This document shows, piece by piece, positions 5,250 through 23,853 of a DNA stretch of 24,000 bases. Both the position numbers and the translations under genes were made by a program. The number at the start of each line of letters is the position of its first letter. Position 1 is the first letter of the stretch. A model generated the notes under the pieces. That model did not search any database. It saw only the letters and a list, made by a program, of their open reading frames with translations, and was not told the DNA's origin. This DNA comes from Oceanobacillus neutriphilus (GTDB taxonomy: Bacteria > Bacillota > Bacilli > Bacillales > Amphibacillaceae): contig NZ_BMLW01000004.1 of the NCBI RefSeq assembly GCF_014645515.1, forward strand, positions 334,805 through 358,804. Reading direction: 5' to 3'.

Positions 5250-6959
5250 ATGAAAGACATATTAAGCGTTAAAAATTTATCTGTTCATTTTCAGACTACG
5301 GAGCAGAAGGTTCAGTCCGTTAATCAAATTTCTTTCTCCGTGAAAAAAGGAGAAACATTAGGTATTGTCGGCGAGTCCGGCTCCGGAAAAAGCGTTACCG
5401 CAAAAGCAATTATGCAATTACTTCCCGGCCAATCCGCGCACCTTCAAGCGGATACAATAGAATATGAAGGAAATAATCTGGCAAATTATTCTGATCATGC
5501 TATGCAGAAAATTCGCGGTCAGGAAATCAGTATGATATTTCAGGATCCAATGAGCTCCTTTAACCCGACAATGAAAATCGGTAAGCAAATTGATGAAGTA
5601 GTCAGCAAACACCGCAAGCTTTCTGCACATAAAGCAAAAGAAGAAACGATTGAAATGCTGAAGCTGGTCGGAATAACCTCACCCGAAGAACGGTATCATC
5701 AATATCCACATGAATTCTCAGGTGGTATGCTGCAGCGTGCCATGATTGCAATGGCCTTAATCTGCCGGCCGAAGCTATTAATTGCTGATGAACCGACAAC
5801 GGCATTAGATGTGCGTATTCAGGCACAAATTCTGCAATTAATGAAAAATCTGCAGGAGAAATTTGATATGAGCATCATCTTGATTACGCATGATTTTGGG
5901 GTTGTTGCCGGTATGTGCGACCGGATTGTTGTCATGAAAGATGGAAAAATTGTTGAACAAAACGACACAGCATCCATTTTCACACAGCCCGAACACCCCT
6001 ATACACAACGGCTGCTTCATGCCCTGCCACGGATTGATCAAAAAAAGGCGAGCAGATACACGAAATCATTTCAAGATACCGAGTCCTTAATTAACGTAAA
6101 GGATTTGAAAAAGATTTTCCCATTAAAATTAGGCGGACTTGTGCATGCAGTGGATGATATTGACTTCCACATCAGACCTGGTGAAACATTAGGATTAGTA
6201 GGAGAATCCGGCTCTGGAAAATCGACGACCGGACGCCTTATTCTGCAACTGCAGCAGGCAACAGAAGGAGAAATTCTTTTCGGAGGAATGGGAATCCATG
6301 ATTTTAATCGCAAGGAACTCAAAAAGCTCCGCAGAGATGTTCAAATTATTTTCCAGGATCCGCAGGCCTCTTTAAACCCGAGAATGAAGATTCTTGATAT
6401 TATTGGTCAGCCGCTGGACATTCATAAGCTATGTAAAACAAAATCAGAAAGAAGAGCCCGGGTCGAGGAATTATTAGAGCTGGTAGGCCTGACAAAGGAA
6501 CACGCCAACAGGTATCCGCATGAATTCTCAGGAGGACAGCAGCAGCGTATTGGTATCGCCCGGGCGCTGGCTGTAAAACCGAAATTTATTGTTTGTGATG
6601 AACCGCTATCCGCTTTGGACGTTTCCATTCAATCACAGATTGTGGATTTATTAGAGGAATTGCAGGAAAAGCTTGGCCTAACCTATCTATTTATTGCACA
6701 TGACCTGGCAATGGTAAAGCATATATGTGACCGGATTGCAGTCATGTATTCCGGCAAAATTATTGAGGTGGCAGAGAGTGAAGAGCTCTATGAAAATCCA
6801 CTTCACCCATATACCAAATCACTGCTTGATGCTGTACCTATTCCAGATCCGGGGATTGAAGCGAAAAAGATCCGGGAGCATGATATTAAGACAGAAACCT
6901 ATCATTTTGAAAAAAATCGGTTAGAGGAAGTAAGACCGGAGCATTGGATGCTTGTGTAA
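5250..6959 (+). CDS. Fused double-domain ABC transporter ATP-binding protein (DppD/DppF-type, GsiA-like)
   Basis: Two complete nucleotide-binding domains: Walker A GESGSGKS twice, signatures SGGMLQR and SGGQQQR, Walker B LLIADEPTTALD and FIVCDEPLSALD. The oligopeptide-type C-terminal motif (HPYT) follows each domain. The ORF track starts at 5244, but GGAG at 5238-5241 is spaced 8 nt from the ATG at 5250 and only 2 nt from 5244. Confidence 0.9.
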   Translation: MKDILSVKNLSVHFQTTEQKVQSVNQISFSVKKGETLGIVGESGSGKSVTAKAIMQLLPGQSAHLQADTIEYEGNNLANYSDHAMQKIRGQEISMIFQDPMSSFNPTMKIGKQIDEVVSKHRKLSAHKAKEETIEMLKLVGITSPEERYHQYPHEFSGGMLQRAMIAMALICRPKLLIADEPTTALDVRIQAQILQLMKNLQEKFDMSIILITHDFGVVAGMCDRIVVMKDGKIVEQNDTASIFTQPEHPYTQRLLHALPRIDQKKASRYTKSFQDTESLINVKDLKKIFPLKLGGLVHAVDDIDFHIRPGETLGLVGESGSGKSTTGRLILQLQQATEGEILFGGMGIHDFNRKELKKLRRDVQIIFQDPQASLNPRMKILDIIGQPLDIHKLCKTKSERRARVEELLELVGLTKEHANRYPHEFSGGQQQRIGIARALAVKPKFIVCDEPLSALDVSIQSQIVDLLEELQEKLGLTYLFIAHDLAMVKHICDRIAVMYSGKIIEVAESEELYENPLHPYTKSLLDAVPIPDPGIEAKKIREHDIKTETYHFEKNRLEEVRPEHWMLV

Positions 6960-8894: not shown

Positions 8895-9173
8895 ATGAAA
8901 AAAGTAATCGTAGCATGTGGCGGTGGTATTGCAACTTCAACATTAATAGCGGATAAAGTCCGCCAGACACTGGATGAAGCAGGAATCGACTATCGGCTCA
9001 CACAAACCACCTTATCTGAACTAGTTTATGAGAATAGTGATGCAGACTTAATCGTGACAAGCATGAAGGTAGAATCTGACTTCGGAGTTCCTGCCCTTTC
9101 AGGAGCCGGATTCTTAACGGGAATTAACGAGGAGGCTATTAAAGAGCAAATTATAAGCGCTTTATCCGACTAA
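8895..9173 (+). CDS. sgcB: PTS galactitol-family EIIB component (SgcB/GatB-like)
   Basis: 92 aa. Active-site Cys in the VACGGGIATST motif near the N-terminus. GGAGAGG RBS. Confidence 0.9.
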   Translation: MKKVIVACGGGIATSTLIADKVRQTLDEAGIDYRLTQTTLSELVYENSDADLIVTSMKVESDFGVPALSGAGFLTGINEEAIKEQIISALSD

Positions 9174-17129: not shown

Positions 17130-17329
17130 GTAATTGTTGTTTAAGGCAAAAATGAAAAGATAATTCAAATGCTTAAAGTTAAATGCTTAGTGGACAGCTT
17201 TCCATTTCCGCTTTAAATAGCGAGTAAAATCGAAATAGAGAAAAAGATACGGAAATAAATATTTACTAAGTTTTTGATTTAACAAATTAAACTTTGAAAT
17301 AATTATATTATCCAGGAATTTCAAGATAG

Positions 17330-17385
17330 ACTGTATAAGTAAGAAGGAATTTGGTTCAGCCCCTTCGCACTTATACAGTTTTTTT
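17330..17385 (+). terminator. Rho-independent terminator about 200 nt downstream of the adenine deaminase stop
   Basis: Perfect 11-bp stem ACTGTATAAGT (17330-17340) / ACTTATACAGT (17369-17379), extended by GAAGG/CCTTC, followed by T7. Confidence 0.75.
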
Positions 17386-17733
17386 ATTAATTATATCCTC
17401 TCATGTGTAATACTTCTTAAAATGGGTATTAATTCTATAGGCAGATTTTTTCAGCAGCTTAATTAGGTATTCATGCATACAGTTGTTTGTATGCTGAACT
17501 AACCTAAGGAATGGTCTGAAAATAGACAGTAGATGCTCTCTCTATAAAAAAGCATACATAGAACTTCAGTAAAAAAGATCACTATCTTACCGAAAAAATC
17601 TCTATACACTTTATTTTAAATTGAAGCTATTTGACTTACAATAAGATATATTGAAAGGGACACGTATGACAAATGAAGGCTACGTATGACATAATAGATT
17701 TATTTGAAGAATGTAACTAAAGTGGGTGTGGAA

Positions 17734-19497
17734 ATGATAAAAATTTTGTTAATAGCACCGTATACCGGAATGACACAGGTTGTTAAGCAATTAGATATTC
17801 CAAAGGATTTTCAACTGGACATAAAGGTAGCAAACCTGGAGGAATCTATCTCGCTCGCAAGGAAAGCAGAAGATGAAGGATATGATTTAATTATCAGTCG
17901 TGGCGGGACGGCAAGTCTAGTAGAGAAGAATGTTTCGATCCCTGTTATACATATTGATATTACAGGGTATGATATGCTGCGCGTTTTTACATTGATACGG
18001 GGCGCGCAAAATACCGTCGCTTTTATCGGATTTGAAAATATATGTCGTGGTGCAAGAACTCTGAATGATATATTGGACTATGACGTAAAAATGTTCACCA
18101 TTCATAAACGTGATGAGGTACGATTATTATTAAATAAACTAAAAAATGAAAATTACGAAATTGTAATTGGAGATGTAGTGACCGTTGAAGAGGCTCAAAA
18201 AATCGGTTTGCGTGGTTTTTTAATTACATCTGGTAAAGAGGCTATTTTTGATGCGTTTGATGAGGCAAGAAGAACATATCATATGTTTCAAAAAGTTTCT
18301 TATAAAACAGATCAATATCAGCAAATCCTCCAATCCCTACCAACAGATATCATTGTTATTAACCAGCAGGAGAAAGTTCTTTTCAATAACCTTTCCCCGA
18401 ATAAAGAAAGAATAGTAAAGAAATTGCTCTATGATAAAGAATTGGGAAAGAACATTCATCAGGCTCTGTCACTAAATGAAAAACAATGGGCACATATAAG
18501 CTCAGAGAATGAGGATTTTGAGTTACAAATATTCCCTGTTACAAGCAGAGAAACTAAGCTAGCCGGGATACATTTATGTTCATACAAAAGGAAAGATGAA
18601 TCAGCAGCATTTCGCATGATAACAAAAAAGATACATCAGCCTATCCTTGGTGGCAGCACCTATGCCCAAAGTATTAAAAATAAAATATATGCGTTTGCAA
18701 ATACAACTGATAACTTGTTTATTTCAGGTGAATTTGGAACAGGTAAAATGACCATCGCCCAATCGATTCACTTTCAAAAATTTGAAAGCAATCACCCTTT
18801 ATTTATTTTGAACTGTGAAATCATAGATTCTGATGATCTGAAAACTCTAAAAGACAGGTGGGTTTCTGTTCAAAAAGGAACAGCAATTTTTGAACATGTT
18901 GAAAGTTTATCACCGACAAATCAAAAGCTTCTGATTGAGCTGTTTCATCAAATTCCGGAATCCTTACAACTCATTTTTTTAGCCAATGAACAAGCATCAT
19001 CCTTAATAGAGAAGAAACATATTTTTGTCTCATTAATTGAAAAAATCGATCCGATTTTTATTCATACACAGCCTTTACGCAATCGAAAAGAGGATCTAAG
19101 AGAATTTATCTCTTACTATTTATCCGAATTCCACACCAGATTCGGCAACGAAACGTTAGGAATTCGTTCGGATGCGCTAGAAATACTTATGCGCTTAGAC
19201 TGGCCGGGAAATTTGGTTGAATTAAAAAAGAAAATTCGGGAATTAAGTCTTCGTGCCGTCGGATATTATATTGAAAACAAAGACGTGAAAGAAATTTTAC
19301 ATGAAGACGCATTGAAAGAACAAAATAAGCCTCTTGAAAATAAAGGCTTCTATATTCCACCTGGTTTGACTTTAGAGGAAATGGAGCAAAGAATTATCCA
19401 AAAGGTGTTAGAAGAGGAAAAAGAGAACCAAACACGTACCGCCAAAAGACTGGGAATGAATCGTACAACTTTATGGAGAAAATTAAATGATAAATAA
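17734..19497 (+). CDS. PrpR_N-domain / PAS-like / degenerate AAA+ (sigma-54-interaction-like) / Fis-type HTH transcriptional regulator
   Basis: N-terminus MIKILLIAPYTGM..ISRGGTA..IPVIHIDITGYD matches the PrpR N-terminal sensor domain. The central region has a GEFGTGK Walker A, PLRNRKEDL and WPGN. The C-terminus NQTRTAKRLGMNRTTLWRKL is an HTH_8. The GAFTGA loop is absent. The start is placed at ATG 17734 rather than TTG 17704 because the homologous domain begins there, but the RBS is weak. Confidence 0.8.
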   Translation: MIKILLIAPYTGMTQVVKQLDIPKDFQLDIKVANLEESISLARKAEDEGYDLIISRGGTASLVEKNVSIPVIHIDITGYDMLRVFTLIRGAQNTVAFIGFENICRGARTLNDILDYDVKMFTIHKRDEVRLLLNKLKNENYEIVIGDVVTVEEAQKIGLRGFLITSGKEAIFDAFDEARRTYHMFQKVSYKTDQYQQILQSLPTDIIVINQQEKVLFNNLSPNKERIVKKLLYDKELGKNIHQALSLNEKQWAHISSENEDFELQIFPVTSRETKLAGIHLCSYKRKDESAAFRMITKKIHQPILGGSTYAQSIKNKIYAFANTTDNLFISGEFGTGKMTIAQSIHFQKFESNHPLFILNCEIIDSDDLKTLKDRWVSVQKGTAIFEHVESLSPTNQKLLIELFHQIPESLQLIFLANEQASSLIEKKHIFVSLIEKIDPIFIHTQPLRNRKEDLREFISYYLSEFHTRFGNETLGIRSDALEILMRLDWPGNLVELKKKIRELSLRAVGYYIENKDVKEILHEDALKEQNKPLENKGFYIPPGLTLEEMEQRIIQKVLEEEKENQTRTAKRLGMNRTTLWRKLNDK

Positions 19498-19512
19498 GTC
19501 TACTTTTTAGAA

Positions 19513-19574
19513 AATACCGTACATGCCACCAACCTTTTTATGAATAGGTTTGGTAGCATGTATGGTATTTTTTT
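19513..19574 (+). terminator. Rho-independent terminator after the regulator gene
   Basis: About 23-bp stem (19513-19535 with 19546-19569; one mismatch, one bulge, one G-U pair), 10-nt loop, T-run to 19574. Confidence 0.8.
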
Positions 19575-19592
19575 CAAAAACAGCAAGCTTAG

Positions 19593-19611
19593 TTGTTTCA
19601 TAATGAAACAA
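19593..19611. promoter_or_regulatory. Palindromic operator/UAS candidate 1: TTGTTTC-ATAAT-GAAACAA
   Basis: Perfect 7-N5-7 inverted repeat (perfect over 9+1+9) in the regulator-kdgT intergenic region. Same half-sites and spacing as the site at 19716-19734. Confidence 0.6.
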
Positions 19612-19657
19612 ATAAACGAATATCGGTATTTAATATGTACAAACTTCAAAATAATTG

Positions 19658-19686
19658 TTGCTTTTTTATTCATTTAGTATTATTAT
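19658..19686 (+). promoter_or_regulatory. Candidate sigma-A promoter of the kdgT/kinase/pdxA2 operon
   Basis: TTGCTT (19658-19663), 17-nt spacer, TATTAT (19681-19686). No TGGCAC-N5-TTGCW element found in this intergenic region. Confidence 0.4.
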
Positions 19687-19715
19687 TTTAATTGCAAACG
19701 CTTCACTTCATTTTA

Positions 19716-19734
19716 TTGTTTCAATAAGAAACAA
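19716..19734. promoter_or_regulatory. Palindromic operator candidate 2: TTGTTTC-AATAA-GAAACAA
   Basis: Perfect 7-N5-7 inverted repeat (8-N5-8 counting flanking A/T), between the candidate -10 and the GGGGGAG RBS of kdgT. Its centre is 123 bp from the centre of site 1. Confidence 0.6.
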
Positions 19735-19762
19735 TAAACTATTATACAAGGGGGGAGAAAGA

Positions 19763-20755
19763 ATGAAGATAAAAGCAACAATCGAAAAGATCCCTGGGGG
19801 AATGATGGTTGTACCGTTGTTGATTGCTGCAACATTAAATACTTTCGCACCGGATTTATTAAGAATTGGTAACTTTACACAGGCTTTGTTTGTAGACGGT
19901 TCCAGCACTTTGATTGCATTGTTCTTATTATTTACCGGGGCACAAATTAACGTAAAAAATGTAGGGGTAAGCCTGGGCAAAGGAGCAACTTTATTAGCTA
20001 CAAAATGGGTAGTAGGTGCACTTGTTGGATTACTGGCATTTTCGATGATGGGCGATAATGGACTGTGGCTTGGTCTGGCTCCAATCGCAATTATTGCTGC
20101 TATGACAAACAGTAATGGCGGTCTCTATGTAGCACTCGTAGGACAATACGGAGATAAGACAGATCGTGCAGCTTATTCTTTATTAGCATTAAATGATGGT
20201 CCCTTTTTAACCATGGTAGCATTGTCAATATTTGGTGTCATGGGATTTGTTGAAGGGATGTTCTCTTTCGTTTCCTTCCTGTCTGTATTACTGCCAATTC
20301 TAGTCGGTATGATTTTGGGTAATTTAGATGAAGACTTGAGAGAATTTTTCCAATCAGGAAGTTCCGTACTTATTCCATTCTTCGCTTTTGCGTTAGGTAT
20401 GGGTATTGATTTTTCTAGCATCATTGAAGGCGGGTTAGGCGGCGTGATTTTAGGCTTGTTAACAGTGTTCGTGACTGGTACAGCCGGGTATTTCATCTTT
20501 AAAGCAATGAAATGGAATCCAATCGCTGGTGCTGCGGAAGGGTCTACTGCTGGAAATGCGGTAGCTACACCAATGGCAATTGCTTCTGCAGGTCCTGCCT
20601 TTTCAGCTAATGTAGAGTTAGCGACTGTTCAAGTTGCTGCAGCAGTTGTTACAACAGCAATTCTACTGCCATTTTACGTAGGGTTTCTAGTAAAACGGCT
20701 AGAGAAAAAAGGCATCAAGGTTCCTGACCATTATATAAAAGTAAATGAAAAATGA
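19763..20755 (+). CDS. kdgT: KdgT-family (2-keto-3-deoxygluconate permease family) acid-sugar transporter
   Basis: The N-terminus MKIKATIEKIPGGMMVVPL.. and motifs SNGGLY, LNDGPF, LIPFFAFALG and STAGNAVATP match B. subtilis KdgT as I recall it. GGGGGAG RBS upstream of ATG 19763. The 36 codons the ORF track adds from 19655 cover the promoter/operator region. Confidence 0.85.
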   Translation: MKIKATIEKIPGGMMVVPLLIAATLNTFAPDLLRIGNFTQALFVDGSSTLIALFLLFTGAQINVKNVGVSLGKGATLLATKWVVGALVGLLAFSMMGDNGLWLGLAPIAIIAAMTNSNGGLYVALVGQYGDKTDRAAYSLLALNDGPFLTMVALSIFGVMGFVEGMFSFVSFLSVLLPILVGMILGNLDEDLREFFQSGSSVLIPFFAFALGMGIDFSSIIEGGLGGVILGLLTVFVTGTAGYFIFKAMKWNPIAGAAEGSTAGNAVATPMAIASAGPAFSANVELATVQVAAAVVTTAILLPFYVGFLVKRLEKKGIKVPDHYIKVNEK

Positions 20756-20781
20756 TTGAGATAGTAAAGTAGGTGTTATAA

Positions 20782-22080
20782 TTGGTGAAACAAATCGCTA
20801 TAATTGCAGATGATTTAACTGGAGCAAATGATAGCGGCATTCAATTAACAGAAAAAGGAATTAATACTTCTGTTCTATTTGAAATTCCAAAACAGATGAA
20901 TCTTCTCAGCGAAGGTGTCGTAATAGATACAAATTCAAGAGCATTATCAAGAGAAAAAGCAATATCCATCACAATGAAATCAGCGAAATTTATCAAAGAT
21001 CTTCATTATAATCATGTCTATAAAAAAATGGATTCGACACTTAGAGGTCATATCGGCCACGAGCTGCAAGCAATGAGCAGTGTATTGAATCCAGAATTTC
21101 TTGTAATTGCTCCGGCGTTTCCTGGTATGGAGCGGGTGACAAAACATGGGTATCACTATGTCCATGGACAATTAATTGCAGAGACAGAAATTGCAAAAGA
21201 TCCAACTCACCCTGTGACAGAGTCCTATATTCCTGCCCTGATAGAGCAGCAAACAGGAGAACGAGTCGGACTGCTCACAAAAGAGGATTTACAAAGTGAT
21301 GAGCATTTCCAAAAAAAGCTAGCCATCTTGAAAGCAGATGAAATTAGAATGATTTGTTGTGATGCCGAAACAGAACAGGACTTAAAAGTGCTCACACATA
21401 AATTTTCAAAAGAAACGAACCGTATCATTTGGGCAGGATCTGCTGGACTGGCAGAAGTTCTCCCACAAGTATTAGGAATTGAAAAGAAAAAGCAACATAT
21501 TTCCTACAAACATTCTAGCGTAGCCATGACAGTGTGTGGCAGTTTATCTGAAAAAACACAGGCACAAATTCGTTATGCAATCCAGCAAAAAAATGTAGCA
21601 GGCATCGAGTTGAACCCGCTGCAAATGTTTCAGGCTGATTGGAAAACACAAAAAAAAGAATATAAAAATACATGTATAAAAATGATTACTCAAAATAAAG
21701 ACGTTGTCCTCTATGTGCCATCAAATGAAAATATTCGCACACAGGTAAAGGAATTAGGCAAGAAAAAAGGACTTTCCAATAATGAAATAGGAGAAACCAT
21801 TTCAGATAGAATTGCAGAATTGGTAGTAGGTGTTAAAAATCAGCTTCCGAATCTGAATCGTTTTGTCCTAACTGGCGGCGATACAGCGAAGTCCATTACA
21901 AAAAGTTTAGGAGCAGTCGGGATGCATCTTATTAAGCAGCTTGAGCCTGGTATTCCGTTAGTATCGTTAGTCGGCAAGGATGGAAGTCTGGTAGTGACAA
22001 AAGCTGGAGCATTTGGAAAAGAGGATTCTATTTATCATGCCATGCAGGAGTTGAAAGGAGAAGCGACGACATATGAGTAA
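20782..22080 (+). CDS. Four-carbon acid-sugar kinase (DUF1537 family; DtnK/DenK/OtnK-like)
   Basis: 432 aa. N-terminal IAIIADDLTGANDSG and C-terminal VLTGGDTAKS motifs of the DUF1537 kinase family. TTG 20782 (or GTG 20785) follows AGGTG. Overlaps the pdxA2 start by 8 nt. Confidence 0.85.
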   Translation: MVKQIAIIADDLTGANDSGIQLTEKGINTSVLFEIPKQMNLLSEGVVIDTNSRALSREKAISITMKSAKFIKDLHYNHVYKKMDSTLRGHIGHELQAMSSVLNPEFLVIAPAFPGMERVTKHGYHYVHGQLIAETEIAKDPTHPVTESYIPALIEQQTGERVGLLTKEDLQSDEHFQKKLAILKADEIRMICCDAETEQDLKVLTHKFSKETNRIIWAGSAGLAEVLPQVLGIEKKKQHISYKHSSVAMTVCGSLSEKTQAQIRYAIQQKNVAGIELNPLQMFQADWKTQKKEYKNTCIKMITQNKDVVLYVPSNENIRTQVKELGKKKGLSNNEIGETISDRIAELVVGVKNQLPNLNRFVLTGGDTAKSITKSLGAVGMHLIKQLEPGIPLVSLVGKDGSLVVTKAGAFGKEDSIYHAMQELKGEATTYE

Positions 22081-23068
22081 AAAACCGATTATAGGTATAA
22101 CCATGGGAGACGCGGCGGGTGTAGGCCCCGAAGTAATCGTTAAAAGTCTGCAGAAACCAGAAATTTATCAGAATGCACATCCCATTGTTATTGGTGATGC
22201 TAAAATATTACAACGTGCTGCCAAAGATTTAAACTTGGAAGTATCCATTAGCAAAAAAAGAAGTCATGATGATTTAACACAAACGTCATATGGTGAAATT
22301 GCCTGTGTGGATCTAGATCTTATTCCTGAAGATTTAACTGTAGGAAAAGTATCCCCGATAGCTGGTGATGCAGCATTTCAATATTTGCAGACAGCAATTC
22401 AATTAGCCAATGAAAATAAAATCCAAGCAATTTGTACAGCACCATTAAATAAAGAAGCACTGCAAAAAGGCGGACACATGTATCCTGGACATACGGAAAT
22501 TCTTGCTGATTTAACAAACACAGAGGATTTCTCCATGATGCTGTCTTCACCAAAATTAAAGGTGATTCACGTTACAACGCATATTGGTTTATTGGATGCC
22601 ATCCAAAAGATTAAACCGGAACGTGTATTCAATGTGATAAAATTAGCGGATAAAACATTAAAAGGTTCAGGAATCGAACAGCCCAAAATAGGTGTTTGCG
22701 GAATCAATCCACATGCCGGAGAAAATGGCCTTTTCGGTTATGGTGAAGAAGAGGAAAAAATTATTCCGGCTGTTCATTTAGCAAAAGAACAAGATATCGA
22801 TGTAGAAGGTCCTTTACCGGCAGATACCTTATTCTTCCGAGCTCAGCGCGGGGACTTTGACATCGTTGTTGCCATGTATCATGATCAGGGCCATGGTCCA
22901 ATAAAAGTACTTGGTTTGGAAGCCGGCGTAAATATAACGGTTGGTCTGCCAATAATACGTACTAGTGTTGACCATGGAACTGCATTTGATATAGCAGGTA
23001 AAGGAATAGTAGATGAAGGAAGCATGTTGGAAGCACTAAGACAAGCTATTGAACTGGCACCGAAGTAA
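22073..23068 (+). CDS. pdxA2: PdxA-family NAD-dependent dehydrogenase, PdxA2-type (4-phospho-D-threonate/erythronate dehydrogenase-like)
   Basis: 331 aa. PdxA motifs ITMGDAAGVGPEV, PGHTEILA, MYHDQGHGPIK, RTSVDHGTAFDIAGKG. Genomic pairing with a DUF1537 kinase. Confidence 0.85.
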   Translation: MSKKPIIGITMGDAAGVGPEVIVKSLQKPEIYQNAHPIVIGDAKILQRAAKDLNLEVSISKKRSHDDLTQTSYGEIACVDLDLIPEDLTVGKVSPIAGDAAFQYLQTAIQLANENKIQAICTAPLNKEALQKGGHMYPGHTEILADLTNTEDFSMMLSSPKLKVIHVTTHIGLLDAIQKIKPERVFNVIKLADKTLKGSGIEQPKIGVCGINPHAGENGLFGYGEEEEKIIPAVHLAKEQDIDVEGPLPADTLFFRAQRGDFDIVVAMYHDQGHGPIKVLGLEAGVNITVGLPIIRTSVDHGTAFDIAGKGIVDEGSMLEALRQAIELAPK

Positions 23069-23205: not shown

Positions 23206-23853
23206 CTATTCATCCAAGTTATAATGATAGTCCTTCTGAAAATCAATATTCTCACCAACTCTTGAAAGTAAATACATTTTATAAGCAACATAAGCATTAT
23301 ATTCAATTCTTTCAACCATATCGTATGCTTTCTCCAGCGACTTATCTGCCACCACCAGGCCATGTCTTTCTAATAATAGTCCGGCAGGTATTTTATCTGC
23401 ATCCCGTTCTGCAATTGTTTCTCTCACTAAAGCCGCTAATTCTGGAGAAGTTGCCGGTCGATAGTCTAAACATGGAATATCACCGATTTTTTGAGTAGCC
23501 TCTGTTATATTTGGCATATCTTTCCCCATACTCGCCCAAACCATGGATTCTTTTGCGTGCGCATGAATAACACAGTTAATGGCAGGATTCTCTTCATAAC
23601 AAGCCATGTGCATATTGATTTCTCTTGTCAGTCTTCCTTCACCCTCAATAATATTTAATTCCTTATCTACTACTAAAATTTGAAATGGACTTAAATCACA
23701 ACGGTAGTTTTGAGACATTAAAGTAGGCGTCATAATAAAATGTTCATCACTAACCTTTAAACTGAGATTTCCACCGGCTGCATTCGTTTGAAATCGATCA
23801 AACATAGTCTTTACAATCTCACACATTTTCTTTCTCTCTTCTGAATATAGCAT
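23206..23853 (-). CDS. Class II aldolase/adducin-domain protein (FucA/AraD/OtnC-like; specificity unknown)
   Basis: 215 aa. Motifs NAAGGNLS, E..MH, the VIHAHA metal-binding histidines, and LLERHGLVV. GAGGTG RBS. Its start overlaps the stop of the upstream gene (TAATG). Confidence 0.8.
   Translation of the reverse strand: MLYSEERKKMCEIVKTMFDRFQTNAAGGNLSLKVSDEHFIMTPTLMSQNYRCDLSPFQILVVDKELNIIEGEGRLTREINMHMACYEENPAINCVIHAHAKESMVWASMGKDMPNITEATQKIGDIPCLDYRPATSPELAALVRETIAERDADKIPAGLLLERHGLVVADKSLEKAYDMVERIEYNAYVAYKMYLLSRVGENIDFQKDYHYNLDE

What the first reader, a model, noticed from the sequence alone, without database searches (positions are those of the whole stretch)
17734..19497. Enhancer-binding-protein relic: AAA+ domain without sigma-54 contact loops or ATPase catalytic residues
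I aligned the central domain by eye to NtrC-type sigma-54 activators. Walker A is GEFGTGKM, versus GESGTGKE. The segment between ..FILNCEII.. and ..KGTAIF.. is about 16 residues shorter, and the ESELFGHEKGAFTGA (L1/GAFTGA) loop is missing. Walker B GTLFLDEIG reads GTAIFEHVE, so the catalytic Glu position is His. A second ~14-residue deletion removes the L2/pre-sensor-I insertion (..LIELFHQIPESLQLIFLAN..). The arginine-finger region FREDLyyRL reads HIFVSLIEKI, and sensor II WPGNVREL reads WPGNLVEL. The scaffold motifs PLRNRKEDL and WPGN, the PrpR-type N-terminal sensor domain and the Fis-type HTH are retained. No -24/-12 promoter is visible upstream of the adjacent operon. This predicts a sigma-54-independent, probably ATPase-dead regulator, conceptually like TyrR or GAFTGA-less NtrC variants. 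Automated pipelines would likely mislabel it as sigma-54-dependent.
Basis: partly seen in the sequence, partly recalled or inferred. Interest (0 to 1): 0.65.

Follow-up and report, generated by a model that had tools for sequence, protein, structure and literature searches.

The report
Sigma-54-independent regulator with dead ATPase domain
This gene encodes a transcription regulator descended from sigma-54 activators; it has lost every part needed to contact sigma-54 or burn ATP, yet is conserved across many Bacillaceae, where it appears to control an ordinary promoter of a four-carbon acid-sugar operon, making it a new member of a known class that databases mislabel.

Summary
ORF 17734-19497 (587 aa) has the architecture PrpR_N, PAS-like, shortened AAA+, lid and Fis-type HTH.

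- **What is missing.** Against ZraR, PspF, PrpR, TyrR and DhaR it lacks the whole GAFTGA/L1 loop (16-17 aa) and the pre-sensor-I insertion (11 aa, not about 14). It also lacks the Walker B Asp-Glu, both arginine fingers and the sensor II arginine. The P-loop is kept.
- **Not a one-off decay.** All 120 closest homologues share these losses, as do 141 of the 143 best-scoring 50%-identity cluster representatives checked. dN/dS of the AAA+ core is 0.15.
- **Conserved context.** In 77 of 80 genomes the gene precedes a DUF1537-kinase/PdxA2 operon.
- **Promoter type.** No -24/-12 promoter occurs in 74 orthologous intergenic regions. 70 of 74 carry a conserved sigma-A -35/-10 followed by a cre-like box.
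- **Predicted operator.** I found a 17-bp palindrome, TGTTK-N7-MAACA, about 120-fold enriched. It lies at about -91 and +32 of the operon promoter, with a half or full site over the -35. In most genomes it also lies over the regulator's own predicted start site. Spacings change in steps of one helical turn.

The closest known analogue is E. coli DhaR, then TyrR. Whether it represses or activates the operon is unresolved. This is a new member of a known kind, and interest is moderate.

The parts
17666..17695 (+). Sigma-A-type promoter of the regulator gene: ATGACA, 18 nt, CATAAT, with TG before the -10.
   Evidence: Best promoter-like hit in the scan, 10 of 12. The same ATGACA-N17/18-(C/T)ATAAT sits at the same place upstream of orthologues in many genera.
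17702..17718 (.). Decayed autoregulatory operator, ATTTGAAGAATGTAACT, immediately after the -10 and so over the predicted start site.
   Evidence: 46 related loci carry an exact TGTT-N9-AACA palindrome (typically TGTTGAAATATGCAACA) about 32 nt before the regulator ATG. In O. sojae only 11 of 17 positions match.
17734..19497 (+). Regulator CDS, 587 aa: PrpR_N sensor (17806-18294), PAS-like domain (about 18340-18624), shortened AAA+ alpha/beta core (18646-19077), AAA lid (19078-19323) and Fis-type HTH (19369-19488).
   Evidence: Pfam. AlphaFold2 model, mean pLDDT 84.6. Foldseek best matches are bEBP AAA+ domains, e.g. NtrC1 with TM 0.78 and rmsd 2.3-3.1.
18727..18750 (+). Retained Walker A P-loop, GEFGTGKM (residues 332-339).
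   Evidence: Family-wide counts: G332 119/120, E333 112/120, G335 116/120, G337 120/120, K338 103 K + 17 R.
18847..18852 (+). Junction of the L1/GAFTGA deletion, between Leu372 and Lys373. 16-17 residues are absent relative to ZraR, PspF and PrpR.
   Evidence: 0 of 120 homologues carry a G[AS][FY][TS]GA motif. The NC..GT segment is 21-26 aa in the family against 39 in ZraR.
18877..18903 (+). Degenerate Walker B, GTAIFEHVE. The Asp-Glu pair is Glu-His here; in the family the Asp position is mostly Lys and the Glu position is Asn, Asp or His.
   Evidence: at the Asp position K 74, E 12, R 11, N 9. At the Glu position N 51, D 27, H 21, and E in only 1 of 120.
18949..18954 (+). Junction of the pre-sensor-I (L2) deletion, between Gln406 and Ile407. 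11 residues are absent.
   Evidence: The Walker B to sensor I segment is 28-34 aa in the family against 42 in ZraR.
19018..19047 (+). Former arginine-finger segment, HIFVSLIEKI (residues 429-438). Both Arg are replaced.
   Evidence: Arg is not among the eight commonest residues at either finger position in the 120 homologues.
19201..19224 (+). Sensor II motif, WPGNLVEL (residues 490-497). Arg is replaced by Val.
   Evidence: W 119/120 and N 120/120 are kept. Arg is not among the eight commonest residues at the sensor II position in the 120 homologues.
19509..19580 (+). Intrinsic terminator of the regulator gene: a long hairpin followed by a U-run.
   Evidence: RNA fold -33 kcal/mol, z = -8.0, none of 200 shuffles as stable. 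The operon downstream therefore needs its own promoter.
19593..19611 (.). Operator O1, the perfect palindrome TTGTTTCATAATGAAACAA, centred about -91 from the predicted start site.
   Evidence: 0 mismatches, and one of only two such sites in 24 kb. Present upstream in most orthologous loci. Its distance to the -35 takes the values 34, 45, 56 or 67 bp.
19656..19686 (+). Predicted sigma-A promoter of the kdgT operon: TGTTGC half-site overlapping the -35 TTGCTT (19658-19663), 17-nt spacer, -10 TATTAT (19681-19686). Predicted start near 19693.
   Evidence: TTGC, N16-18, TANNNT and a cre-like box co-occur in 70 of 74 orthologous intergenic regions, against 0.55 expected; see the alignments. In the Neobacillus-type subclade a full site, TATTGCTAAATGCAACA, covers the -35 and spacer.
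19693..19706 (.). cre-like (CcpA-type) box TGCAAACGCTTCAC at about +1 to +14.
   Evidence: It lies a fixed 35-36 nt from the -35 TTGC in 38 of the 42 anchored KdgT-type regions. The resemblance to the Bacillus cre consensus TGWAANCGNTNWCA is from my own knowledge and was not tested.
19716..19734 (.). Operator O3, the perfect palindrome TTGTTTCAATAAGAAACAA, centred about +32.
   Evidence: 0 mismatches. In orthologues its centre lies 66-70 nt after the start of the -35 in 30 of 35 loci.
19763..23068 (+). Target operon: KdgT-family permease (19763-20755), DUF1537 four-carbon acid-sugar kinase (20782-22080) and PdxA2-type dehydrogenase (22073-23068).
   Evidence: Pfam and NCBIfam: KdgT E 9e-113; SBD_N plus NBD_C with best NCBIfam hit D-threonate kinase (317 bits, below the 450 cutoff); PdxA. 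The order regulator, [KdgT], kinase, PdxA2 holds in 77 of 80 genomes.

Best explanation
**What it is.** The gene encodes a one-component, ligand-sensing transcription factor that descends from PrpR-type sigma-54 enhancer-binding proteins but no longer works through sigma-54. Its AAA+ domain has lost both surface loops that grip sigma-54 (L1/GAFTGA and pre-sensor-I) and every residue needed for ATP hydrolysis. These are the Walker B Asp-Glu, both arginine fingers and the sensor II Arg. It keeps a compact five-stranded P-loop core and the lid.

**Role of the AAA+ remnant (inferred).** It serves as an oligomerisation scaffold, possibly still binding a nucleotide or phosphate, that couples the PrpR_N/PAS sensor to the C-terminal Fis-type HTH.

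**DNA binding (shown in silico).** The HTH dimer most likely recognises a 17-bp palindrome, TGTTK-N7-MAACA. In this window that is TTGTTTC-N5-GAAACAA.

**Target.** The target is a sigma-A promoter in front of a permease / DUF1537-kinase / PdxA2 operon for a four-carbon acid sugar of the D-threonate or D-erythronate type. That promoter also carries a cre-like box.

**Operator layout.** Operators sit at about -91 (O1), over the -35/spacer (O2: a half-site here, a full site in a sister subclade) and at about +32 (O3). They are spaced by whole helical turns. In most genomes another operator covers the start site of the regulator's own promoter, which implies negative autoregulation.

**Most likely mechanism (inferred).** Without ligand, an oligomer occupies the phased operators and wraps or loops about 125 bp of promoter DNA, shutting it. 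Binding of the acid sugar or a phosphorylated intermediate to the PrpR_N domain remodels the complex so that RNA polymerase with sigma-A can start, possibly helped from O1. This would be a TyrR/DhaR-like dual regulator. Whether the net effect on the operon is repression, activation or both is the least certain step.
For: **Loss of sigma-54 and ATPase determinants**
- Shown: - The loss is family-wide: 0 of 120 homologues have a GAFTGA-like motif, and only 1 of 120 keeps Glu at the Walker B Glu position. Arg is not among the eight commonest residues at either finger or at sensor II.
- The P-loop is retained: G337 in 120/120 and K/R338 in 120/120.

**Domain still folded and selected**
- pLDDT is about 90 over residues 301-448.
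- The best structural matches are bEBP AAA+ domains, TM 0.72-0.78.
- dN/dS is 0.15 for the AAA core, 0.07 for PrpR_N and 0.03 for the HTH.

**Family size**
- 316 word-index hits at E<=1e-10.
- More than 562 genome loci.
- 141 of the 143 best-scoring 50%-identity cluster representatives checked lack a GAFTGA-like motif; a short Walker A-to-WPGN spacing could be measured in about half of them.
- 10 of 10 sampled have the same PrpR_N ... HTH_8 architecture.

**Synteny**
- The gene precedes a DUF1537 kinase and PdxA2 in 77 of 80 genomes.

**No sigma-54 promoter**
- None in the window's intergenic region and 0 of 74 orthologous regions.
- The E. coli prpB promoter shows a textbook TGGCAC-N5-TTGCT.

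**Sigma-A promoter**
- A -35/-10 plus cre-like box is conserved in 70 of 74 regions, against 0.55 expected.
- A strong terminator separates the regulator from the operon.

**Operator**
- Two perfect copies in the window.
- Exact TGTT-N9-AACA occurs 61 times in 18.9 kb of regulator-operon spacers, against 0.5 in shuffles and 0.11 per kb elsewhere.
- The same motif sits about 32 nt before the regulator ATG in 46 loci.
- Spacings are quantised by about 11 bp.
- The GTTTCA half-site is also present in the E. coli prpR-prpB spacer.

**Precedents**
- TyrR, DhaR, HupR, VpsR and YplP are EBP homologues with a defective GAFTGA that act with sigma-70 (Francke et al. 2011, PMC3162934).
Against: - Nothing here is experimental. 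No transcription start site, binding assay, ATPase assay or mutant phenotype exists for any member that I could find.
- The assignment of the palindrome to this protein rests on co-occurrence, not on a footprint.
- The direction of regulation is ambiguous. Four observations fit an activator: a non-consensus -35 (TTGCTT); O1 at class-I-like positions (-69, -80, -91, -102); lineages that keep O1 but lack O3 (Jeotgalibacillus, Rossellomorea); and DhaR being an activator. Three observations fit a repressor: a full operator inside the core promoter in the sister subclade; O3 downstream of the start site; and an operator over the regulator's own start site.
- P-loop conservation does not prove nucleotide binding. 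17 of 120 members have Arg for the P-loop Lys, and 74 of 120 have Lys at the Walker B Asp position.
- Presence of sigL in O. sojae itself was not checked.
- The substrate of the operon is only inferred. Both the kinase and the PdxA2-type hits fall below NCBIfam's cutoffs for the D-threonate enzymes.
Confidence: 0.75

Rival explanations
1. It is a pure activator of the sigma-A promoter, in the manner of DhaR or a class I factor. Liganded protein bound at O1 (about -91), on the correct face of the helix, recruits RNA polymerase to a weak -35. O3 and the own-promoter site serve only to dampen expression or for autoregulation.
For: - The -35 is non-consensus, TTGCWW.
- O1 lies at positions separated by whole helical turns relative to the promoter.
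- Some genera keep O1 and the TGTTGC -35 element but have no recognisable O3 (L039, L040, L042, L050, L052).
- The ancestors are activators, and DhaR is annotated as a dual regulator. DhaR activating dhaKLM from a sigma-70 promoter is from my own knowledge.
Against: - A full-consensus operator lies inside the core promoter between -35 and -10 in the Neobacillus-type subclade.
- O3 lies at a fixed position downstream of the start site in most KdgT-type loci.
- The protein evidently uses start-site-overlapping operators at its own promoter. These are repressor-type positions.
Confidence: 0.3
2. It is a conventional sigma-54 (SigL)-dependent enhancer-binding protein, as the database names say. 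It would use an unusual contact surface and a divergent promoter.
For: - It is homologous to bEBPs.
- NCBI and UniRef use the names 'sigma-54-dependent' and 'sigma-L-dependent'.
- At least O. iheyensis has sigma-54.
Against: - The whole L1/GAFTGA loop and the pre-SI loop are deleted, and the catalytic Glu, arginine fingers and sensor II Arg are gone in all 120 homologues.
- PF00158 matches only profile positions 2-62 of 168.
- 0 of 74 orthologous promoters have a GG-N10-GC core site, while 70 of 74 have a sigma-A -35/-10.
- All known bEBP activity needs ATP hydrolysis and GAFTGA (reviews; Francke 2011).
Confidence: 0.03
3. It is a decaying, functionless remnant: a pseudogene in the making, or a protein whose central domain is an inert linker.
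For: - The AAA core is the second least conserved folded part, with a mean identity to the query of 0.30 against 0.57 for PrpR_N and 0.66 for the HTH.
- The autoregulatory operator has decayed in O. sojae.
Against: - The ORF is intact and synteny is conserved in 77 of 80 genomes across many genera.
- dN/dS is 0.13 overall and 0.15 in the AAA core.
- The P-loop, PLRxR(K/x)xD and W.GN motifs are nearly invariant.
- The fold is predicted with confidence.
Confidence: 0.02
4. The TGTTK-N7-MAACA palindromes belong to a different transcription factor. This protein would bind something else, for example the cre-like box.
For: - No binding data exist.
- The cre-like element is in places a 15-bp palindrome, TGTAAAC-G-GTTTACA, reminiscent of TyrR boxes. 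That comparison is from my own knowledge.
Against: - The palindrome co-occurs with the regulator gene on both sides: at its own promoter in 46 loci and next to its target promoter.
- It is 30-fold rarer in flanking DNA.
- It shares its GTTTCA half-site with the E. coli prpR-prpB control region.
- The cre-like box sits where CcpA boxes usually do and matches that consensus.
Confidence: 0.05

Closest known systems
E. coli DhaR (regulator of dhaKLM)
   Same: - It is an EBP homologue with sensor domains, an AAA+ central domain and a Fis-type HTH.
- It has no GAFTGA.
- Walker B is degenerate: FLEKIE, compared with IFEHVE here.
- The arginine fingers are lost (FSRQLYYAL) and the sensor II Arg is lost (WPGNDFEL).
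- It is listed among sigma-70-dependent, defective-GAFTGA EBPs (PMC3162934).
- It gives the best single-stretch NCBIfam alignment across the central domain.
   Different: - DhaR keeps most of L1 (only about 3-4 residues shorter) and the whole pre-SI insertion. Here both are deleted outright.
- The sensor is GAF/PAS and responds to the DhaK/DhaL proteins (my own knowledge). Here it is PrpR_N plus a PAS-like domain.
- The target is the dihydroxyacetone kinase operon.
- It is not an orthologue: 104 bits against a cutoff of 551.
E. coli TyrR
   Same: - It is an EBP-derived, GAFTGA-less regulator of sigma-70 promoters.
- It binds palindromic boxes, some overlapping promoters. Repression through a hexamer that bridges several phased boxes is from my own knowledge.
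- It is annotated as a dual regulator.
   Different: - TyrR lacks only 7-8 residues of L1.
- It keeps Walker B LLDEIG, the pre-SI insertion, FREDLYYRL and WPGNVRQL, so it still binds and can hydrolyse ATP.
- Its sensor is ACT/PAS.
- Its DNA motif is TGTAAA-N6-TTTACA.
PrpR (propionate catabolism activator, E. coli / Salmonella)
   Same: - It has the same N-terminal PrpR_N sensor fold (E 5e-56; PDB 2q5c and 2pju).
- It has the same C-terminal HTH_8.
- The GTTTCA/TGAAAC half-site occurs in the E. coli prpR-prpB control region.
   Different: - PrpR has GAFTGS, DE, arginine fingers and sensor II, and a textbook -24/-12 promoter.
- The query scores 118 bits against the TIGR02329 cutoff of 499.
- The query regulates an acid-sugar operon, not prpBCDE.
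Pfam PF14532 Sigma54_activ_2 / PDB 3n70 ('transport activator' short AAA+ domain)
   Same: - The short central domain matches the PF14532 profile end to end (1-138 of 138, 51 bits against a cutoff of 25).
- Query residues 304-434 align to residues 3-130 of the 145-residue chain 3n70 without a large gap. A loop-less short form therefore already exists in the databases.
   Different: - PF14532 carries no functional annotation beyond 'sigma-54 interaction domain'.
- I did not inspect the motif status of 3n70.
- No link to PrpR_N sensors or to acid-sugar operons is described.
Other GAFTGA-less EBPs: Rhodobacter NtrC and HupR, Caulobacter NtrC, Vibrio VpsR, B. subtilis YplP
   Same: They share loss of sigma-54 coupling and use of sigma-70-type promoters (PMC3162934; VpsR PMC6158489 and the Caulobacter NtrC preprint).
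   Different: These are mostly response regulators with receiver domains. Several retain ATP binding or hydrolysis. None is linked to a PrpR_N sensor or to this operon.

Membership tests
Sigma-54-dependent bacterial enhancer-binding proteins (PF00158 bEBPs) | GAFTGA motif on the L1 loop that contacts sigma-54 | tested here: not met
   A 16-17-residue gap lies over ESELFGHEKGAFTGAD. 0 of 120 homologues have G[AS][FY][TS]GA.
Sigma-54-dependent bacterial enhancer-binding proteins (PF00158 bEBPs) | Pre-sensor-I (L2) beta-hairpin insertion | tested here: not met
   An 11-residue gap lies over EREVQRVGSNQ. The model shows no hairpin between helix 394-406 and strand 411-417.
Sigma-54-dependent bacterial enhancer-binding proteins (PF00158 bEBPs) | Walker A P-loop GxxGxGK | tested here: met
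   GEFGTGKM. The family consensus is G-E-x-G-T/N-G-K/R.
Sigma-54-dependent bacterial enhancer-binding proteins (PF00158 bEBPs) | Walker B hhhhDE with the catalytic Glu | tested here: not met
   AIFEH here. In the family the Asp position is Lys in 74 of 120, and the Glu position is Glu in 1 of 120.
Sigma-54-dependent bacterial enhancer-binding proteins (PF00158 bEBPs) | Arginine fingers (PspF R162/R168 equivalents) and the sensor II Arg | tested here: not met
   IFVSLIEKI and WPGNLVEL here. Arg is not among the eight commonest residues at these positions in the 120 homologues.
Sigma-54-dependent bacterial enhancer-binding proteins (PF00158 bEBPs) | Target promoter of the -24 GG / -12 GC type | tested here: not met
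   No such site in 19498-19762. 0 of 74 orthologous regions have one.
Sigma-54-dependent bacterial enhancer-binding proteins (PF00158 bEBPs) | ATP hydrolysis and sigma-54-dependent open-complex formation | not testable with these tools
   This needs purified protein and in vitro transcription.
Sigma-54-independent EBP-derived regulators (TyrR / DhaR type) | EBP-homologous central domain without a functional GAFTGA, plus a C-terminal Fis-type HTH | tested here: met
Sigma-54-independent EBP-derived regulators (TyrR / DhaR type) | Target promoter recognised by the housekeeping sigma factor | tested here: met
   Met in silico only. A conserved TTGCWW-N17-TATNAT occurs in 70 of 74 loci, against 0.55 expected. 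No start site has been mapped.
Sigma-54-independent EBP-derived regulators (TyrR / DhaR type) | Palindromic operators near or overlapping promoters, and autoregulation | tested here: met
   Prediction only. O1, O2 and O3 lie at the operon promoter and another operator lies over the regulator's own start site. Binding was not measured.
PrpR orthologues (TIGR02329 / PRK15424) | Score above the equivalog cutoff, and control of prpBCDE | tested here: not met
   118 bits against a cutoff of 499, and 116 against 703. The neighbouring operon is KdgT / DUF1537 kinase / PdxA2. Only the PrpR_N domain is shared.
Pfam PF14532 Sigma54_activ_2 | Full-length match above the gathering score | tested here: met
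   51.2 bits against 25, profile positions 1-138 of 138.
D-threonate catabolic operon (DtnK + PdxA2; Zhang et al. 2016 pathway, from my own knowledge) | DUF1537 kinase and PdxA-family decarboxylating dehydrogenase adjacent to each other, scoring as the D-threonate enzymes | tested here: inconclusive
   The domain pair and adjacency are present. The best NCBIfam hit is D-threonate kinase, at 317 bits against a cutoff of 450. D-threonate 4-phosphate dehydrogenase scores 340 against 583. The substrate could be D-threonate, D-erythronate or a related acid sugar.

The most novel reading that the evidence does not exclude
The dead AAA+ ring has been turned into a ligand-gated DNA-wrapping scaffold. 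A hexamer (a trimer of HTH dimers) would bind three operators spaced by 5-6 helical turns across the promoter. The strictly conserved but non-catalytic P-loop would bind a phosphorylated pathway intermediate, such as 4-phospho-D-threonate, or ATP used purely as an allosteric co-effector. The PrpR_N clade would then record, in living intermediates, the stepwise conversion of a sigma-54 motor into a sigma-A switch.
Probability: 0.15. Interest if true: 0.6.

Novelty: new member of a known kind. Interest (0 to 1): 0.36.

Why it matters
- **Annotation.** Hundreds of genomes label this family 'sigma-54-dependent'. That inflates predicted SigL regulons in Bacillaceae. A simple test corrects it: GAFTGA, Walker B and R-finger columns, or a PF14532-only match.
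- **Testable model.** The family comes with a ready regulatory model: the operator sequence, three phased sites, a sigma-A promoter, a cre box and autoregulation. This concerns the poorly studied four-carbon acid-sugar (DUF1537/PdxA2) pathway in Gram-positives, and could serve as a biosensor part.
- **Evolution.** The PrpR_N clade holds canonical, half-degenerate and fully stripped forms side by side. This is a convenient natural series for asking what a AAA+ domain is still good for once it can neither hydrolyse ATP nor touch its partner.
- **Limits.** The principle (TyrR, DhaR, VpsR and others) is already established, so this extends known biology rather than overturning it.

Tried and rejected
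- **Other -24/-12 candidates.** I looked for a sigma-54 promoter elsewhere in the window. The best near-matches are inside coding regions. For example, 8918-8933 lies inside a small PTS EIIB ORF, and 20656 lies on the minus strand inside kdgT.
- **Alternative sigma-A promoter.** I considered TATTAT at 19740-19745, just before the ribosome-binding site. I rejected it because it is not conserved, whereas TTGC-N17-TATNAT-cre is.
- **TTGCA as a sigma-54 -12 element.** I considered that the conserved TTGCA at the -35 might be a -12 box. No GG lies 10 nt upstream in any locus.
- **Rfam.** A scan of the whole window found nothing.
- **Literature.** Searches for this family, for PrpR_N/PF14532, and for regulators of DUF1537/PdxA2 operons in Firmicutes found no characterised member. 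A paper expected to describe PrpR binding sites did not.
- I did not use the remaining structure-prediction job or homology searches. The family-wide alignments had already settled the questions they could address.


Full report
**1. The observation**

It runs from ATG 17734 to stop 19495-19497 and encodes 587 aa.

Pfam gives the following domains:
- PrpR_N covers residues 25-187 (E 5e-56).
- The short model Sigma54_activ_2 (PF14532) matches end to end over residues 305-448.
- The canonical Sigma54_activat (PF00158) matches only profile positions 2-62 of 168.
- AAA_lid_14 covers 449-530 and HTH_8 covers 546-585.

No NCBIfam equivalog cutoff is approached. PrpR scores 118 bits against 499, and DhaR scores 104 against 551.

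The HMMER alignment to the solved ZraR structure 1ojl agrees with MAFFT alignments that include E. coli PspF, PrpR, TyrR and DhaR taken from NC_000913.3:
- Walker A GEFGTGKM is present.
- A 16-17-residue gap removes ESELFGHEKGAFTGAD.
- Walker B reads GTAIFEHVE.
- An 11-residue gap removes the pre-sensor-I insertion.
- FRQDLYYRL reads IFVSLIEKI.
- WPGNIREL reads WPGNLVEL.

**2. It is a family trait, not local decay**

- The window is Oceanobacillus sojae (L001, 99% identity).
- All 120 best homologues share both deletions. They come from Oceanobacillus, Virgibacillus, Lentibacillus, Gracilibacillus, Halobacillus, Jeotgalibacillus, Neobacillus, Peribacillus and others, down to 35% identity.
- Column counts show the following.
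  - GAFTGA-like motifs occur in 0 of 120.
  - The Walker B Asp position is Lys in 74 of 120.
  - The Glu position is Glu in 1 of 120.
  - Arg is not among the eight commonest residues at either finger or at sensor II.
  - The P-loop is almost invariant: G337 in 120/120 and K/R338 in 120/120.
- An exhaustive HMMER search with the C-terminal half listed 150 representatives of 50%-identity clusters. I checked 143 of them, and 141 lack a GAFTGA-like motif. Where the spacing could be measured (about half), Walker A to WPGN is about 155-165 residues, against 186 in PspF.
- Ten sampled members all have PrpR_N, a short AAA+, the lid and HTH_8.
- Within this PrpR_N clade there is a graded series.
  - Some are canonical (P0184, P0255).
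  - Some lack GAFTGA, the catalytic Glu and the sensor II Arg, but keep the pre-SI insertion and the first arginine finger (P0145, P0220, P0204).
  - Some have a partly shortened pre-SI (P0151, P0203).
  - The query type is fully stripped.
- The AlphaFold2 model is confident (mean pLDDT 84.6, about 90 over 301-448). It shows a minimal five-stranded P-loop core plus lid.
- Foldseek places it with bEBP AAA+ domains, TM 0.72-0.78.
- dN/dS against O. locisalsi is 0.07 for PrpR_N, 0.33 for the PAS-like domain, 0.15 for the AAA core, 0.12 for the lid and 0.03 for the HTH.

The central domain is thus a selected, repurposed module. 'Relic' describes its ancestry, not its state.

**3. Context**

- A strong terminator follows the regulator (-33 kcal/mol, z = -8).
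- Downstream on the same strand lie a KdgT-family permease, a DUF1537 (SBD_N + NBD_C) kinase whose best NCBIfam hit is D-threonate kinase, and a PdxA-family dehydrogenase.
- The order regulator, [KdgT], kinase, PdxA2 is kept in 77 of 80 genomes.
- There are two subclades. One has KdgT and is query-like. The other is the Neobacillus type, without KdgT and with a more distant kinase.
- DUF1537 kinase plus PdxA2 is the known short route from a four-carbon acid sugar to DHAP. That assignment rests on my knowledge of Zhang et al. 2016. The exact substrate is not settled here because the scores are below the equivalog cutoffs.

**4. Promoters and operators**

*No sigma-54 promoter.*
- No -24/-12 site exists in 19498-19762.
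- None exists in any of 74 orthologous regulator-operon spacers.
- The E. coli prpB promoter fetched for comparison shows a perfect TGGCAC-N5-TTGCT.

*A conserved sigma-A promoter.*
- 70 of 74 spacers carry TTG(C/A)NN-N16-18-TANNNT followed by a cre-like half-box, against 0.55 expected.
- In the window this is TTGCTT (19658-19663), 17 nt, TATTAT (19681-19686), then TGCAAACGCTTCAC (19693-19706). This predicts a start near 19693.

*A palindromic operator.*
- The window holds two perfect palindromes of the form TTGTTTC-N5-GAAACAA, at 19593-19611 and 19716-19734.
- Across loci the motif generalises to TGTTK-N7-MAACA.
- Exact TGTT-N9-AACA occurs 61 times in 18.9 kb of these spacers. Shuffles give 0.5, and flanking DNA gives 0.11 per kb.
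- The only other hot spot is about 32 nt upstream of the regulator's own ATG, in 46 loci.
- That site sits directly after a conserved ATGACA-N17/18-(C/T)ATAAT promoter and so over the predicted start site. In the window this promoter is the best sigma-70-type hit, 17666-17695.
- In O. sojae and its closest relatives that autoregulatory site has decayed.

*Geometry at the operon promoter.*
- O3 is centred 66-70 nt after the start of the -35 in 30 of 35 loci, which is about +32.
- The distance from the O1 centre to the -35 takes the values 34, 44-45, 54-57 (the mode, about -91) or 67-68 bp. These are steps of one helical turn.
- The -35 is embedded in a nearly invariant TGTTGC half-site.
- In the sister subclade a full site, TATTGCTAAATGCAACA, spans the -35 and spacer. 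There O1 lies 50, 72 or 83 bp upstream and O3 lies 53-54 bp downstream.
- The GTTTCA/TGAAAC half-site also occurs in the E. coli prpR-prpB control region. This fits a PrpR-type HTH that has kept its specificity.

**5. Mechanism**

*Shown in silico.*
- The sigma-54 contact and ATPase determinants are lost.
- The P-loop and fold are retained.
- Sigma-A promoters are conserved at both genes.
- A cognate-looking palindrome occurs at helically phased positions and over the regulator's own start site.

*Inferred.*
- The protein binds those palindromes through its HTH.
- It autorepresses.
- It controls the operon as an oligomer held together by the AAA+ remnant.
- It responds to an acid sugar or a phosphorylated intermediate through PrpR_N.

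*Direction of control.* My preferred reading is a TyrR/DhaR-like dual switch. An unliganded oligomer would occupy O1, O2 and O3 and close the promoter. Ligand would remodel it to allow or assist initiation. CcpA would add catabolite repression through the cre-like box.
- Favouring repression: a full operator inside the core promoter, O3 downstream of the start, and an operator over the regulator's own start site.
- Favouring activation: a weak -35, class-I-like O1 positions, lineages that lack O3, and activator ancestry.

I put about 0.75 on the sigma-54-independent, ATPase-dead, palindrome-binding sigma-A regulator. Within that, I put roughly 45% on a dual switch, 30% on a pure activator and 20% on a pure repressor.

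**6. Comparison with known systems**

- That EBP homologues with a defective GAFTGA act with sigma-70 and are routinely misannotated is established. Examples are TyrR, DhaR, HupR, VpsR and YplP (Francke et al. 2011, PMC3162934). VpsR and Caulobacter NtrC papers appear.
- My alignment shows DhaR to be the nearest analogue. It too has a degenerate Walker B (EK), lost arginine fingers and a lost sensor II. TyrR keeps them all.
- This family goes further by deleting both loops outright.
- It combines the short domain with a PrpR_N sensor and a C4 acid-sugar operon.
- Pfam already models the short domain (PF14532). A 145-residue solved chain (3n70) aligns without large gaps.
- I found no paper on this family or on regulators of DUF1537/PdxA2 operons in Firmicutes. 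In Brucella a DeoR-type regulator does that job (PMC10580937).
- O. iheyensis has sigma-54 (supplement to PMC3162934). The loss of coupling therefore happened in a sigma-54-positive background.

**7. Verdict**

The finding is a new, uncharacterised member, at the extreme end, of a known kind of regulator. This analysis adds:
- the family-wide scope;
- the evidence for selection;
- the DhaR comparison;
- the graded series of intermediates;
- a concrete operator and promoter model.

Interest is moderate. It is useful for annotation and as a test case for AAA+ domain repurposing, but it would not surprise a specialist.

Noticed in passing
window 19693-19706, and the same position in 42 related loci: A cre-like (CcpA-type) box lies a fixed 35-36 nt downstream of the -35 TTGC, over the predicted start site. 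Halobacillus-type and Jeotgalibacillus-type loci carry a second copy overlapping the -10. In Gracilibacillus loci the box is a perfect 15-bp palindrome, TGTAAAC-G-GTTTACA.
   Followed up: partly
window 19818-19834: A third exact TGTT-N9-AACA match, TGTTGATTGCTGCAACA, lies inside the kdgT coding region, about +125 from the predicted start. It could be a fourth operator, or a by-product of the conserved peptide LLIAAT.
   Followed up: no
proteins P0184, P0255, P0145, P0220, P0204, P0151, P0203: The PrpR_N clade contains a graded series. It runs from canonical GAFTGA/DE/R-finger proteins, through forms that lost only GAFTGA, the catalytic Glu and sensor II, to the fully stripped type. This suggests an order of losses.
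   Followed up: partly
L083 4486-4512 and 4622-4637 (E. coli prpR-prpB spacer): The E. coli PrpR control region reads cTTGTTTCATAATtgttgcaATGAAACg, with the same GTTTCA half-site as the Oceanobacillus operators. It is followed by further TGAAAC repeats and a perfect TGGCAC-N5-TTGCT promoter.
   Followed up: partly
window 17702-17718 compared with L004-L079 at about 5968-5985: The autoregulatory operator present in 46 related loci has decayed in O. sojae, O. sp. J11TS1 and O. locisalsi. Their operon operators use GTTTC/GAAAC rather than GTTGC/GCAAC half-sites. This may be a lineage-specific shift in specificity or a loss of autoregulation.
   Followed up: no
window 17130-17733: An unusually long (600 nt), AT-rich non-coding stretch lies between the adenine-deaminase-like gene and the regulator. 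It holds a hairpin plus T-run at about 17331-17386. No Rfam family matches anywhere in the window.
   Followed up: partly
window 23206-23853 (- strand): A convergent class II aldolase/adducin-family gene lies here (PRK06357, 306 bits). It is weakly similar to 3-oxo-tetronate 4-phosphate decarboxylase (E 4e-25) and could belong to a neighbouring acid-sugar pathway. No operator-like palindrome is visible in the short stretch of sequence upstream of it within the window.
   Followed up: no
window 17704-17733; protein P0001: The database representative (597 aa), like ORF listing, starts at TTG 17704. Alignment with homologues (M-I-K-x-L-L-I-A-P-Y) and the GGTG ribosome-binding site support ATG 17734.
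   Followed up: yes
L039, L040, L042, L050, L052: Jeotgalibacillus and Rossellomorea loci keep O1 (at about -80) and the TGTTGC -35 element but have no recognisable downstream operator O3. The three-site layout is therefore not universal.
   Followed up: partly
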